The translations under genes and the position numbers were made by a program. A stretch of DNA of 17,922 nucleotides, taken from a virus. Location of the stretch: the UHGV virus genome UHGV-0157346; one strand, given 5' to 3'. Of the stretch, positions 9,239 through 11,581 are shown piece by piece (the first letter of the stretch is position 1; every line of letters starts with the position of its first letter). The notes under the pieces were generated by a model. The model worked only from the letters and a program-made list of their open reading frames with translations. It made no database searches and had not been told where the DNA came from.

Positions 9239-9269
9239 GGCTCTTAAAAATTAAGCCCTGAAGAAGGGC
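9239..9269 (+). promoter_or_regulatory. nutL (boxA and boxB)
   Basis: GCTCTTAAAAATTAAGCCCTGAAGAAGGGC, which is the lambda nutL boxA plus boxB hairpin, upstream of N. Confidence 0.88.
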
Positions 9270-9441
9270 AGCATTCAAAGCAGAAGGCTTTGGGGTGTGG
9301 TGAAGGGTTCATGGATGGGAATATGTCGCACGTAAAGCGGCGAGGCCTGCGGAACTATTGCCGAATTGAAGTCGGCCGAAGCAGGTCGAAATGGGTCTCC
9401 CACCTACCACACCACCAAAGCTAACTGACAGGAGAATCCAG

Positions 9442-9774
9442 ATGGATGCACAAACACGCCGCCGCGAACGTCGCGCAGAGAAACAGGCTCAATGGAAAGC
9501 AGCAAATCCCCTGTTGGTTGGGGTAAGCGCAAAACCAGTTAACCGCCCTACTCTCTCGCTGAATCGCAAACCGAAATCACGAGTAGAAAGCGCACTGAAT
9601 CCGATAGACCTTACGGTGCTGGCTGAATACCACGAACAGATTGAAAGCAACCTGCAACGTATTGAGCGCAAGAATCAGCGCACATGGTACAGCAAGCCAC
9701 GCAGTGAAATGGGTGTGACTTGTGTTGGTCGCCAGAAGCAACGCGGAAAATCAATTCCAGCTTATTACGATTGA
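9442..9774 (+). CDS. N: Antitermination protein N, lambda type
   Basis: MDAQTRRRERRAEKQAQWKAANPLLVGVSAKPVN... with the arginine-rich motif; ribosome-binding site GGAG upstream of ATG 9442; matches lambda N through most of its length. Confidence 0.92.
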   Translation: MDAQTRRRERRAEKQAQWKAANPLLVGVSAKPVNRPTLSLNRKPKSRVESALNPIDLTVLAEYHEQIESNLQRIERKNQRTWYSKPRSEMGVTCVGRQKQRGKSIPAYYD

Positions 9775-9782
9775 GGTGATCC

Positions 9783-9920
9783 ATGCTCAAGAAAGTCAAA
9801 CGCCGACTTTACAAAGAAGGTAGATATTCATGCCATTTGCCAAAATGCGACACAGCAAAATGGAGTGTCGACGATTGGTGTAACTGGATAGATAGATACG
9901 GAACTTGGTGGGATAAATAA
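9783..9920 (+). CDS. Hypothetical 45-aa Cys/His/Trp-rich peptide
   Basis: GAGGTGA ribosome-binding site then ATG 9783; MLKKVKRRLYKEGRYSCHLPKCDTAKWSVDDWCNWIDRYGTWWDK; below the track's size cutoff. Confidence 0.4.
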   Translation: MLKKVKRRLYKEGRYSCHLPKCDTAKWSVDDWCNWIDRYGTWWDK

Positions 9921-9974
9921 CAGGTAACTTAAGCGGATTTATTTTCGCAGCAAACCACTTATTTGAGGTGAGAT

Positions 9975-10424
9975 ATGGAAGAACAAGCAAACAAGATTCT
10001 CGTAGAACTACTGCAAAAAGCCAGTAATGGAATAGACGCGGCTGTTTCATTTAGCCAGGCACAGACTCCTGATGTTGTTCATCAGTTGCTGCTATGGAAT
10101 ATGGTTGACAGTCTGATTAAAACATTAATGGCCATTCTAACAATCCCACTGGTTTTCTGGTTTATGAAGAAGCAGTGCCAAAGAGTTGAGACAGGTAAAA
10201 TCGGTGATGAAGGATATTCATGGGAGAAAGGAAATCCCAAATACAGGCCGACAATGGTTTGGGATAGCAAAGGTGATATTAATCTTCTTATCATGCCATT
10301 GGTTGTAGTTTTGACTCTGTGGGGGATTTTTATTATTGGTGTAGTAACCAATATGACTTGGTTAAAAATTTGGCTGGCCCCAAAGCTTTACCTTATCGAA
10401 TATGCAGCATCATTGGTTAAGTAA
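9975..10424 (+). CDS. Hypothetical membrane protein (149 aa, two predicted transmembrane helices)
   Basis: Hydrophobic segments LIKTLMAILTIPLVFWFM and LLIMPLVVVLTLWGIFIIGVVT; AT-rich; preceded by a 19-bp leader repeated before the next gene; occupies the lambda sieB/ral position. Confidence 0.65.
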   Translation: MEEQANKILVELLQKASNGIDAAVSFSQAQTPDVVHQLLLWNMVDSLIKTLMAILTIPLVFWFMKKQCQRVETGKIGDEGYSWEKGNPKYRPTMVWDSKGDINLLIMPLVVVLTLWGIFIIGVVTNMTWLKIWLAPKLYLIEYAASLVK

Positions 10425-10429
10425 TTTCA

Positions 10430-10456
10430 GGCCGCATAGTCGGCCTTTATTTTTTG
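10430..10456 (+). terminator. Intrinsic terminator after the membrane-protein gene
   Basis: ggccg-catagt-cggcc followed by tttatttttt. Confidence 0.6.
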
Positions 10457-10502
10457 CATAAACAACAGAATAAACACTGCACTGAATTATTTGAGGTGAG
10501 AT

Positions 10503-10973
10503 ATGACAAAATCATGGAGCGTACCTTTTCCTGAATCAGAAACTGAACATGATGGAATGCCTGTTTTCTGGAGATTCCAGGCGACAGTTGAAGAAGATGG
10601 AATCAAAATATTCGCACTTCAATATATAGCTTTTCATCAGACAGAGCATTATGCATGGTTGGTTCCTGCGCATTGGATTGTTAATTTTAAACCAGCACCA
10701 AATCAGTGGTTACAGGAATGGAAACAAAAGAGAAATAGATATGCAATTAAGAAAGTAGCAAAAAATGCAGAAAGATCTTTTGCATTCCCAACGAAGAAAC
10801 TTGCCATTGAGAGTTTATTGCGCCGGAAGAAATACCATTTAATGAGAATTAAACAAGATTTGGCTGTTGTATCAACTCTTGTTGATGGGATGAAGAATAT
10901 TGATACATCAACACCAGATATTGAATATAACTTTGGACACAACCAAGAAACAGAAAACTGGGTATTTTATTAG
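10503..10973 (+). CDS. Hypothetical protein (156 aa), second gene of the AT-rich cassette
   Basis: ORF with the same ttatttgaggtgagatATG leader as the preceding gene; no family recognised. Confidence 0.6.
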   Translation: MTKSWSVPFPESETEHDGMPVFWRFQATVEEDGIKIFALQYIAFHQTEHYAWLVPAHWIVNFKPAPNQWLQEWKQKRNRYAIKKVAKNAERSFAFPTKKLAIESLLRRKKYHLMRIKQDLAVVSTLVDGMKNIDTSTPDIEYNFGHNQETENWVFY

Positions 10974-11077
10974 TACAAATAAGCACTGTGTATTCATTCC
11001 AACGAGTGAATACACGGAGCAATGTCGCTCGTAACTAAACAGGAGCCGACTTGTTCTGATTATTGGAAATCTTCTTT

Positions 11078-11102
11078 GCCCTCCAGTGTGAGGGCCTTTT
11101 TA
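11078..11102 (+). terminator. Intrinsic terminator after the AT-rich cassette
   Basis: gccctc-cagtgt-gagggc followed by cttttta. Confidence 0.65.
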
Positions 11103-11163
11103 TATGCATACCAATAACGCTTCACTCGAGGCGTTTTCGTTATGTATAAATAAGGAGCACACC

Positions 11164-11289
11164 ATGCAATATGCCATTGCAGGGTGGCCTGTTGCTGGCT
11201 GCCCTTCCGAATCTTTACTTGAACGAATCACCCGTAAATTACGTGACGGATGGAAAAGAGTTGAGGTCTTATTATGCGCAATGAAATAG
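11164..11289 (+). CDS. cIII: cIII-like FtsH inhibitor with a divergent, shortened C-terminus
   Basis: AAGGAG ribosome-binding site; MQYAIAGWPVAGCPSESLLERITRKLRDGWKR matches lambda CIII residues 1-32 as recalled, then diverges (VEVLLCAMK) and stops at 41 aa. Confidence 0.8.
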   Translation: MQYAIAGWPVAGCPSESLLERITRKLRDGWKRVEVLLCAMK

Positions 11290-11426
11290 CCATAAATCAT
11301 CAGATGCTTCGTGCTGCACAAAACAAAGCAGTAATAGCCAGATTTATTGGTGATTCCAAAATGTGGTTTGAAGCAAATAAAGCGATGAAATCAGCTATCA
11401 ACCTTCCGTGGTATCGCAGGAAATGA
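11274..11426 (+). CDS. kil: Kil-like host-killing (cell-division inhibitor) peptide
   Basis: 50 aa; the segment IARFIGDSKMWFEANKAMKSAI resembles lambda Kil (IATFIGDEKMFREAVDAYKK) as recalled; overlaps the cIII 3' end as kil does in lambda. Confidence 0.6.
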   Translation: MRNEIAINHQMLRAAQNKAVIARFIGDSKMWFEANKAMKSAINLPWYRRK

Positions 11427-11581
11427 GTTTTACAGATAACTGGTCAGACGAAGAATTCATTCGTCAGATGAAAGATTTAATCGGTAACGAAGGAGATATT
11501 CATGTCACTTGCAACCACAGTGAAGGAGAGCAAGTTACAGAGACGCATGTACACGCAGAAAGCTCTCTGGTATCGCCATAA
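11423..11581 (+). CDS. Hypothetical 52-aa acidic peptide
   Basis: ATG overlaps the kil TGA (ATGA); weak ribosome-binding site; overlaps the next ORF in another frame. Confidence 0.3.
   Translation: MSFTDNWSDEEFIRQMKDLIGNEGDIHVTCNHSEGEQVTETHVHAESSLVSP

What the first reader, a model, noticed from the sequence alone, without database searches (positions are those of the whole stretch)
9783..9920. Cys/His/Trp-rich 45-aa peptide encoded immediately after N
The ORF begins 8 nt after the N stop with a GAGGTGA ribosome-binding site and encodes a basic N-terminus followed by C-H-C...C and five Trp residues. Small proteins at this position in lambdoid phages often modulate host functions. It is too short for the ORF track and easily missed by annotation.
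Basis: inference. Interest (0 to 1): 0.28.

Follow-up and report, generated by a model that had tools for sequence, protein, structure and literature searches.

The report
Small conserved early phage protein after N
The 45-codon reading frame right after the lambda-type N gene is a real small phage gene, already catalogued as a family of unknown function (DUF5484, phage T4 gp55.4, phage Sf6 gene 36); it is held together by tryptophans rather than a metal site, and what it does is still unknown.

Summary
It has five Trp, three Cys and one His.

It is a real gene and not a new one. It scores 44.5 bits against Pfam DUF5484 (cut-off 27) and E 1e-21 against phrog_1871. It is 43/45 identical to the annotated Sf6 gene 36 and 50% identical to the gp55.4 homologue of T4-like phage SP18. 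tblastn finds relatives in 1057 phage records.

The Cys/His emphasis does not hold. Across 53 diverse relatives, Cys22 and Cys33 are rare, and His18 is Gln in most lambdoid alleles. The conserved residues are K6, Y15, P20, W27, W32, D37, G40 and W42, which AlphaFold places in a small two-helix, two-strand fold (pLDDT 85).

Published supplements class T4 gp55.4 as early RNA and early protein, and its knockdown has no fitness cost in a lab host.

In lambdoid phages the gene is an optional module between N and a conserved linker that precedes at least eight different genes.

My best reading is an early accessory protein that binds a host or replication/transcription component. The target is unknown. 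Leads are a C-terminal fusion to a DNA polymerase in N4-like Cbunavirus phages and a weak fold resemblance to Rpb6/omega.

The parts
9783..9920 (+). 45-codon gene (stop included) for a DUF5484 / phrog_1871 protein. It is an allele of Sf6 gene 36 and a homologue of T4 gp55.4.
   Evidence: ORF listing. Pfam PF17583 at 44.5 bits against a cut-off of 27. phrog_1871 at E 1e-21. 43/45 identical to Sf6 gp36. 50% identical to the gp55.4 homologue of T4-like phage SP18, E 8e-15. AlphaFold model with pLDDT 85.
9773..9781 (+). Shine-Dalgarno sequence GAGGTGATC, overlapping the N stop codon and ending 1 nt before the ATG (the GAGG core ends 6 nt before it).
   Evidence: Read directly from the sequence. 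GAGGTG is kept upstream of the ORF in nearly all of the 74 related loci.
9442..9774 (+). Lambda-type antitermination gene N (110 aa). Its 3' end is physically linked to the small gene in all relatives examined.
   Evidence: Pfam N36 at 91.9 bits and phrog_271. The upstream flank ...IPAYYD-stop is conserved in nearly all of the 74 loci. Phages N7 and mEpX1 share only the last ~95 nt of N plus the ORF.
9127..9194 (+). Three 434-type operators (OL) that mark the pL promoter, which would drive N and the small gene.
   Evidence: ACAANNNNNNTTGT gives 5 matches in the window against 0.47 expected. Sf6 annotates the equivalent OL/PL.
9255..9269 (+). nutL boxB hairpin GCCCTGAAGAAGGGC.
   Evidence: Sequence. 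It is identical to lambda boxB (established knowledge). The equivalent nutL is annotated in Sf6.
9921..9974 (+). Conserved ~54-nt linker (CAGGTAACTTAAGCG.ATTTA.TTTCGCAGCAAACCACTTATTTGAGGTGAGAT) that ends in the ribosome-binding site of whichever gene follows. It acts as a mosaic boundary.
   Evidence: The same linker follows the ORF in the 74 loci and precedes at least 8 different genes. Its core TTATTTGAGGTGA occurs again in the window at 10487-10499.
10429..10446 (+). First intrinsic-terminator-like hairpin downstream of pL on the + strand. N, the small gene and the 149-aa membrane ORF lie upstream of it.
   Evidence: Terminator scan: no + strand site between 9135 and 10429.

Best explanation
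Identity and expression (about 0.9 confidence). Bases 9783-9920 encode a real 45-residue protein of the DUF5484 / phrog_1871 family, which includes T4 gp55.4 and Sf6 gp36. The gene lies in the pL operon. It would be silent in the repressed prophage and transcribed with N in the first minutes after induction or infection, upstream of the first intrinsic terminator. It is translated from its own strong Shine-Dalgarno sequence, which overlaps the N stop codon, so ribosomes finishing N could reinitiate on it.

Fold (shown by alignment and model). The protein folds as a tiny helix-strand-loop-helix-strand domain. The conserved residues are aromatic and a few others: Y15, W27, W32, aromatic 35, I36, W42, plus P20, G40, K6 and D37. 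Conserved cysteines or histidines are not part of it.

Mechanism (inferred, about 0.55 confidence). It acts as a stand-alone protein-binding module. It would use the conserved DW(I)xW(I)DxxGxW face to bind a cellular or replication/transcription component that is common to gamma-proteobacterial hosts. That would make it a conditionally useful host-takeover or counter-defence accessory, not a core phage function. The target is not identified.
For: Homology:
- Family membership.
- 60 representative homologues at E <= 1e-3 among 1.84 billion proteins.
- 1057 phage records hold a tblastn match.

Conservation:
- K6, Y15, P20, W27, W32, D37 and W42 are at least 90% conserved, and G40 is invariant.
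- AlphaFold pLDDT is 85, with H3-12, E15-17, H29-39 and E40-42.
- 72 of 74 lambdoid loci keep the frame, and 9 of 15 variable sites fall at codon position 3.

Early position in at least five unrelated phage groups:
- Lambdoid pL operon.
- T4-like 55.x cluster.
- N4-like Gamaleyavirus, directly after the RNAPII large subunit.
- phiKMV-like Pseudomonas phage, 3.4 kb from the left end.
- Erwinia and Serratia jumbo phages, ~4.5 kb from the record start.

Experimental data on the T4 homologue:
- Classed 'early-RNA_early-Protein' (PMC9697503 supplement).
- dCas13d knockdown scored 'Not Fit', score -0.35, p 0.68 (PMC11879866 supplement). The gene is therefore dispensable in a lab host, as accessory genes are.

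Optional, modular distribution:
- About 11 of 163 phage records that match the queried N-to-ORF stretch carry it.
- 146 of 5426 E. coli genomes carry it.
- It is flanked by a mosaic linker.

Behaves as a portable domain:
- Net charge varies from -5 to +7, which argues against a conserved nucleic-acid-binding surface.
- It is fused to Cys-rich N-terminal stretches that look like zinc ribbons (read from the sequences), to other unknown domains, and to a DNA polymerase.
Against: - No binding partner, phenotype or structure exists for any family member. Literature searches for DUF5484, PF17583, phrog_1871 and gp55.4 found nothing functional.
- Among the near-identical lambdoid alleles, purifying selection is only weakly visible: 7 synonymous against 8 non-synonymous variable sites.
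- Expression of the lambdoid copy itself has not been measured. Timing is inferred from operon position and from T4.
- Rho-dependent termination between N and the ORF cannot be excluded.
Confidence: 0.6

Rival explanations
1. Replisome- or DNA-associated accessory. The domain docks onto a replication component or onto DNA, and the free-standing versions do the same in trans.
For: - In Cbunavirus (N4-like) phages Kosakonia Kc283, Pectobacterium CB3 and Arno152, among others, the 903-aa family-A DNA polymerase ends in a clear DUF5484 domain (...AELGKYTCPKPAVDTSKWKPKDWVKYVDAHGTWTGA). It is in frame and scores 20.5 bits against Pfam.
- 20 records cover at least 80% of that polymerase tail.
- Related Schitoviridae polymerases stop about 45 residues earlier.
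Against: - This is a single fusion event in one genus.
- Elsewhere the neighbours are not replication genes.
- Variable net charge argues against direct DNA binding.
- Lambda-type phages depend on the host replisome, so an inhibitor of it would be harmful to them.
Confidence: 0.12
2. RNA-polymerase-binding factor that resembles part of the omega/Rpb6/RpoK subunit. It would tune host RNAP early in infection, possibly together with N.
For: - A short LPxxxxxxWSV[DE][DE] match to the Rpb6 C-terminus exists.
- Several gene neighbours are transcription genes: lambda N, the N4-like RNAPII large subunit and the T4 gene 55 region.
Against: - hhalign gives only 15 aligned columns with P 0.09.
- No Pfam Rpb6 signal in any of the 53 members.
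- Early phage regions are full of transcription genes anyway.
Confidence: 0.07
3. Small zinc-binding (Cys/His) regulatory peptide, as the C-H-C...C pattern suggested to the first reader.
For: This allele has C17, H18, C22 and C33. Cys17 is fairly common in the family, at 32 of 53.
Against: - Cys22 is present in 4 of 53 and Cys33 in 5 of 53. His18 is not among the four commonest residues at its column.
- His18 is Gln in the commonest lambdoid alleles.
- The gp55.4 homologue of T4-like phage SP18 has no Cys at all.
- The model folds confidently around aromatic residues.
Confidence: 0.03
4. Not a functional protein. The frame is kept because the DNA or RNA serves another role (N 3' region, terminator, recombination linker), or it acts only as a coupling or leader ORF for downstream expression.
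For: - The segment sits at a mosaic junction.
- It starts only 8 nt after the N stop.
- Among close alleles, non-synonymous changes are as frequent as synonymous ones.
Against: - Protein-level homology of 40-55% identity spans unrelated phage groups with entirely different flanks.
- There is no Rfam match, and the RNA fold is unremarkable at z -1.8.
- There is no terminator-like site within or next to the ORF.
- The T4 homologue is classed as an early protein in a proteome study.
- ORFs on the other strand and in other frames have no family.
Confidence: 0.02

Closest known systems
Shigella phage Sf6 gene 36 protein (NP_958212) and SfI_0044
   Same: 43/45 identical. Same position directly after N, same Shine-Dalgarno sequence, and the same downstream linker.
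   Different: Two substitutions (H18Q, A25T). In Sf6 the following genes are ral and gene 34. Here they are a 149-aa membrane ORF and a 156-aa ORF. No function is known for either protein.
Bacteriophage T4 gp55.4 (T4p069, UniProt P07080), Pfam DUF5484 and phrog_1871
   Same: Same family. The window protein scores 44.5 bits against Pfam DUF5484, and the conserved K, Y, P, W, W, D, G and W positions are shared with the SP18 gp55.4 homologue (50% identity). Both are early genes in a string of small genes. T4 gp55.4 is classed as an early protein and is dispensable in a lab host.
   Different: The SP18 homologue that was read has no cysteines and no basic N-terminus. It belongs to a virulent phage and sits among the nrd and gene 55 region, with no link to an antiterminator.
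Small host-modulating proteins of the lambda pL operon (Kil, CIII, Ral, Gam)
   Same: Same operon, same early timing, similar size, optional and mosaic distribution. This is the functional analogy behind the proposed mechanism.
   Different: No sequence or fold relationship. Their targets are known from the literature (my own knowledge: FtsZ, FtsH, EcoKI and RecBCD respectively), whereas no target is known here.
RNA polymerase subunit Rpb6 / RpoK / omega
   Different: Not significant by any sequence method, and Foldseek finds no match. The protein is less than half the length of bacterial omega. Treat this as a lead only.

Membership tests
Pfam DUF5484 (PF17583) / phrog_1871 (T4 gp55.4 family) | Scores above the curated Pfam gathering threshold over nearly the whole model. 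| tested here: met
   44.5 bits against a cut-off of 27, residues 5-42 on model positions 3-41 of 43. phrog_1871 at E 1e-21 over 1-43.
Pfam DUF5484 (PF17583) / phrog_1871 (T4 gp55.4 family) | Carries the family's conserved residues (K, Y, P, W, W, D, G, W in the K..LY..G.Y...P...T..W...DWI.WID..G.W pattern). | tested here: met
   K6, Y15, P20, W27, W32, D37, G40 and W42 are all present. They are at least 90% conserved across 53 representatives.
Pfam DUF5484 (PF17583) / phrog_1871 (T4 gp55.4 family) | Small (about 40-50 aa) phage-encoded protein located among early genes. | tested here: met
   45 aa, first gene after N in the pL operon. The same holds in Sf6, SfI, T4-like, N4-like and phiKMV-like phages.
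Zinc-finger / zinc-ribbon small proteins | Four conserved Cys/His metal ligands. | tested here: not met
   Cys17 in 32 of 53, Cys22 in 4 of 53, Cys33 in 5 of 53, and His18 not among the four commonest residues at its column. Q18 in the commonest lambdoid alleles. The SP18 gp55.4 homologue has no Cys.
RNA polymerase Rpb6 / RpoK / omega (Pfam PF01192) | Significant sequence or profile match to the family. | tested here: not met
   No Pfam hit other than DUF5484 at E <= 10 for any of 53 members. hhalign against the yeast Rpb6 C-terminal half gives 15 columns, probability 0.6%, P 0.09.
RNA polymerase Rpb6 / RpoK / omega (Pfam PF01192) | Shared fold. | tested here: inconclusive
RNA polymerase Rpb6 / RpoK / omega (Pfam PF01192) | Binds the largest RNAP subunit (beta' / Rpb1). 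| not testable with these tools
   Needs co-purification or complex prediction. No complex predictor was available.
Lambda pL-operon host modulators (functional class, not a homology family) | Transcribed from pL early after induction. | tested here: inconclusive
   The position fits: OL at 9127-9194, nutL at 9255-9269, and no intrinsic terminator before 10429. No expression data exist for this phage.
Lambda pL-operon host modulators (functional class, not a homology family) | Binds and alters a defined host protein. | not testable with these tools
   No partner is known for any DUF5484 protein.

The most novel reading that the evidence does not exclude
DUF5484 is a portable docking domain for a central nucleic-acid machine, either the host RNA polymerase at the omega/beta' site or a replisome component. 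Phages as different as T4, lambda-like, N4-like and phiKMV-like would all deploy it early. The lambdoid copy, made together with N, would then be an unrecognised second RNAP-directed factor of the pL operon. The Cbunavirus polymerase fusion would use the same contact to tether replication.
Probability: 0.08. Interest if true: 0.7.

Novelty: already known. Interest (0 to 1): 0.22.

Why it matters
As a finding in this window it is ordinary. The gene is an allele of an annotated Sf6 gene and a member of a catalogued family.

The family itself is a worthwhile target. It is one of the smallest conserved phage domains (about 40 residues). It is shared by at least five unrelated phage groups, including the two best-studied coliphage types. 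The T4 member is made early and is dispensable in the lab host, and no member has been characterised. RefSeq annotation left the gene out of every E. coli prophage copy listed. Identifying its partner would add a function to T4 and lambdoid early biology and would explain the DNA polymerase fusion.

Tried and rejected
- Zinc-finger reading: rejected, because the ligands are not conserved.
- Nucleic-acid binding through the basic N-terminus: rejected as a family property, because net charge ranges from -5 to +7.
- Sequence search of PDB with the family profile: no hit at E <= 10.
- Foldseek against PDB: nothing.
- BFVD: only family members, all uncharacterised.
- The afdb_sample library was unavailable.
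- Domains fused to DUF5484 in longer homologues: no Pfam, PHROG or PDB identity. There were only marginal DnaJ-like hits at E 0.004-0.06, which I regard as zinc-ribbon or chance matches.
- NCBIfam: no family.
- Gene-neighbourhood look-ups of distant homologues: no recurrent partner.
- RNA-element explanation: no Rfam match and an ordinary fold energy.
- Overlapping ORFs on the other strand and in other frames: no family.
- The search for related loci could not be used, because the protein is too short and the alignments too variable. A degenerate DNA pattern was used instead.
- Literature: no paper mentions DUF5484, PF17583 or phrog_1871, and gp55.4 appears only in a transcript list. One search was wasted on accession-like strings.

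Full report
**1. The observation**

The window carries the immunity and early-left region of a lambdoid prophage, read so that pL points rightwards.
- A 434-type repressor gene lies at 8044-8676.
- Five ACAANNNNNNTTGT operators are present against 0.47 expected. Three of them, at 9127-9194, mark OL/pL.
- The lambda boxB hairpin GCCCTGAAGAAGGGC is at 9255-9269.
- A lambda-type N gene is at 9442-9774: Pfam N36 at 91.9 bits and phrog_271.

The N stop is TGA at 9772-9774. Eight bases later, ATG 9783 opens a 45-codon frame that ends with TAA at 9918-9920. GAGGTGA at 9773-9779 overlaps the N stop. The product is MLKKVKRRLYKEGRYSCHLPKCDTAKWSVDDWCNWIDRYGTWWDK. It has five Trp, three Cys, one His and a net charge of +5.

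The coordinates, spacing, ribosome-binding site and Trp count are all as reported. 'His-rich' is not accurate. An open frame of this size is also not remarkable: 62 ORFs of at least 20 aa overlap 8500-11500.

**2. Is it a gene?**

Yes.
- It scores 44.5 bits on Pfam DUF5484 (cut-off 27) and E 1e-21 on phrog_1871.
SfI annotates it as SfI_0044. Sf6 gp36 is 43/45 identical.
- tblastn finds relatives in 1057 of 50,697 phage records. Most are T4-like phages of Escherichia, Klebsiella, Shigella, Yersinia and Enterobacter, at about 50% identity. The pairwise E-value against the gp55.4 homologue of T4-like phage SP18 is 8e-15.
- An exhaustive HMMER scan of 1.84 billion representatives gives 60 hits at E <= 1e-3. 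Three of these (P0009, P0028, P0051) are long repetitive proteins that I set aside as spurious.
- All 53 aligned representatives hit DUF5484 and no other Pfam family consistently.
- Among 74 IMG/VR contigs recovered with a degenerate DNA pattern, 72 keep an intact frame. 63 are 45 aa. Nine are 54 aa, because a 23-nt deletion removes the stop. Two are disrupted.
- Among 22 distinct alleles, 9 of 15 variable sites are third codon positions, with 7 synonymous and 8 non-synonymous sites. That is only a mild sign of constraint at this shallow depth. The deep protein conservation is the decisive argument.
- Overlapping ORFs on the other strand and in other frames have no family.
- No Rfam family matches 8900-10700, and the RNA fold is ordinary at z -1.8.

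**3. What the conserved features are**

In the alignment of 53 representatives, G40 is invariant. K6, Y15, P20, W27, W32, D37 and W42 are at least 90% conserved. L9, Y/F10, G13, T24, I33, aromatic 35 and I36 are the majority residues.

His18 is not among the four commonest residues at its column, and it is Gln in the commonest lambdoid alleles. The SP18 gp55.4 homologue has no cysteine. Net charge of the domain ranges from -5 to +7, so the basic N-terminus is a lineage trait.

AlphaFold, given this alignment, produces a confident small fold with mean pLDDT 85: helix 3-12, strand 15-17, a long loop carrying P20, T24 and W27, helix 29-39 and strand 40-42. The protein is therefore a metal-independent mini-domain with an aromatic core. 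Nearly every residue of helix 2 is conserved (DWIxWID), and that helix is the obvious candidate interaction face (inference).

**4. Context in lambdoid phages**

- In nearly all of the 74 loci the ORF follows the same N 3' end (...IPAYYD-stop) with the GAGGTG site.
- Phages N7 and mEpX1 share only the last ~95 nt of N plus the ORF. Many phages match only the 5' part of the same N and then diverge, so they do not carry this ORF module.
- About 11 of the 163 phage records that match the queried N-to-ORF stretch, and 146 of 5426 complete E. coli genomes, carry the ORF. It is always single-copy and chromosomal in those genomes.
- Downstream there is a conserved ~54-nt linker ending in TTATTTGAGGTGAGAT-ATG. 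At least eight different genes follow it in different phages.
- The linker core recurs in this window at 10487, bracketing the 149-aa membrane ORF. The Sf6 record annotates 'boundary sequences' of this kind elsewhere in the same region.

The ORF is therefore an optional cassette at the N-proximal edge of the hypervariable ral region. The scan finds no intrinsic terminator on the + strand between pL and 10429-10446. N, the small gene and the 149-aa ORF are thus predicted to share the first leftward transcript. This is an inference, and Rho-dependent sites are not excluded.

**5. Context elsewhere**

The family sits among early genes in several unrelated phage groups:
- T4-like phages, between 55.5 and 55.3 and tightly packed.
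- Gamaleyavirus and related Klebsiella N4-like phages, overlapping the end of the RNAPII large-subunit gene.
- A phiKMV-like Pseudomonas phage, 3.4 kb from the left end.
- An Aeromonas autographivirus.
- Erwinia and Serratia jumbo phages.
- Uncultured phage contigs among strings of small ORFs.

There is no recurrent neighbour.

Some homologues carry extra domains. These include N-terminal stretches with CxxC...CxxC patterns that look like zinc ribbons (read from the sequences), and unknown N- or C-terminal extensions. None has a recognisable family.

The most informative fusion is in Cbunavirus (N4-like) phages. The 903-aa family-A DNA polymerase of Kosakonia Kc283 ends, in frame, with a clear DUF5484 domain. 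The tail is shared by about 20 records, including Pectobacterium phages CB3 and Arno152. Related Schitoviridae polymerases stop about 45 residues earlier.

**6. Experimental information on the T4 homologue**

- In the time-resolved T4 study, gene 55.4 (T4p069, P07080) is classed 'early-RNA_early-Protein' (PMC9697503 supplementary files 4 and 6).
- In the dCas13d knockdown screen, 55.4 (listed as phrog_1871) is 'Not Fit', with score -0.35 and p 0.68. Knockdown therefore had no measurable cost on the laboratory host (PMC11879866 supplementary file 15).
- A 2026 preprint only lists T2 gp55.4 among early-to-middle transcripts.
- No paper in the library mentions DUF5484, PF17583 or phrog_1871.

**7. 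Fold comparisons**

- The family profile finds no PDB sequence at E <= 10.
- Foldseek against PDB finds nothing (best E 7.6).
- BFVD returns only uncharacterised family members.

**8. Most likely mechanism**

Shown:
- It is a real, conserved, small protein with an aromatic core.
- It sits in early operons.
- It is optional and modular.
- The T4 member is made early and is dispensable in the lab host.

Inferred: it is a protein-binding module that acts early on a component common to gamma-proteobacterial hosts, as a host-takeover or counter-defence accessory. This is analogous to the other small pL-operon proteins (Kil, CIII, Ral, Gam). In this prophage it would be silent under repression and made together with N on induction. 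Translation may be helped by ribosomes terminating at the N stop inside its Shine-Dalgarno sequence.

Confidence is about 0.9 that it is an expressed DUF5484 gene and about 0.55 for the binder or accessory mechanism. The target is unknown.

Rivals are a replisome or DNA-associated role (0.12, from the polymerase fusion), an RNAP omega/Rpb6-like factor (0.07), a zinc peptide (0.03) and a non-protein role (0.02).

**9. Novelty and verdict**

The feature is already known as a gene (Sf6 gene 36, SfI_0044, T4 gp55.4, Pfam DUF5484). It is also present in public protein databases as 'hypothetical protein' on hundreds of contigs. RefSeq/PGAP nevertheless leaves it unannotated in every E. coli complete genome listed.

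Its emphasis on Cys/His is wrong. Its guess of a host-modulating role is reasonable but untested.

Interest is low to moderate. The window feature is ordinary, but the family is a small, widespread and wholly uncharacterised early phage domain with one suggestive fusion.

Noticed in passing
L081:891-3602 (Kosakonia phage Kc283, NC_070861.1 22388-25099): The family-A DNA polymerase of Cbunavirus (N4-like) phages carries a DUF5484 domain as its last ~40 residues, after a linker. About 20 records share the tail. Related Schitoviridae polymerases end about 45 residues earlier.
   Followed up: partly
window 9921-9974 and 10478-10502: A conserved linker ending in TTATTTGAGGTGAGAT-ATG occurs twice in the window and brackets the 149-aa ORF. 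In 74 related contigs the same linker follows the small gene and precedes at least eight different genes, so it looks like a recombination boundary that doubles as a ribosome-binding site.
   Followed up: partly
window 9975-10424 (+), terminator 10429-10446: A 149-aa ORF with hydrophobic stretches that look like membrane segments (phrog_3054, no Pfam or NCBIfam family) is followed at once by a strong intrinsic terminator. It is a moron-like cassette in the position where lambda-type phages carry exclusion genes.
   Followed up: no
window 8601-8999 (+): An ORF directly after the 434-type repressor gene, in the rexAB position (phrog_2651; the equivalent of Sf6 gene 38). An internal start gives a signal-peptide-like [20 protein letters not shown]. 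It is a candidate prophage-expressed secreted or exclusion protein.
   Followed up: no
L080 9001-9138 (E. coli 04-00955, NZ_CP035498.1 3565832-3565969): An identical copy of the ORF is unannotated by PGAP. Locus-tag numbering jumps from EQO00_RS17670 to RS17680 exactly there, which suggests that a gene call was made and later dropped. N itself is labelled only 'hypothetical protein' in that record.
   Followed up: no
L008, L011 and other IMG/VR loci (9 of 74); E. coli hits H152-H158: A 23-nt deletion removes the stop codon and part of the linker. The result is a 54-aa variant ending WWERIYFR..., and it recurs in many genomes.
   Followed up: partly
L084:2489-2629 (Escherichia phage IME11): In Gamaleyavirus and related Klebsiella N4-like phages, the DUF5484 gene overlaps the last 14 nt of the RNAPII large-subunit gene in another frame. 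In one record (24-32N) it is not annotated at all.
   Followed up: partly
window 11104-11289 (+): The 61-aa ORF contains, from an internal ATG, a sequence that I recognise from memory as lambda CIII-like (MQYAIAGWPVAGCPSESLLERITRKLRDGWKR...). No ral homologue was seen between N and this ORF in this window, unlike in Sf6 and SfI.
   Followed up: no
P0001 (65 aa) versus window 9722-9823: Some database entries start the protein at an upstream GTG inside the end of N (MLVARSNAENQFQLITIEVV-MLKK...). This works only in alleles whose N-to-ATG spacer is one base shorter. The extension is not conserved and looks like an annotation artefact.
   Followed up: partly
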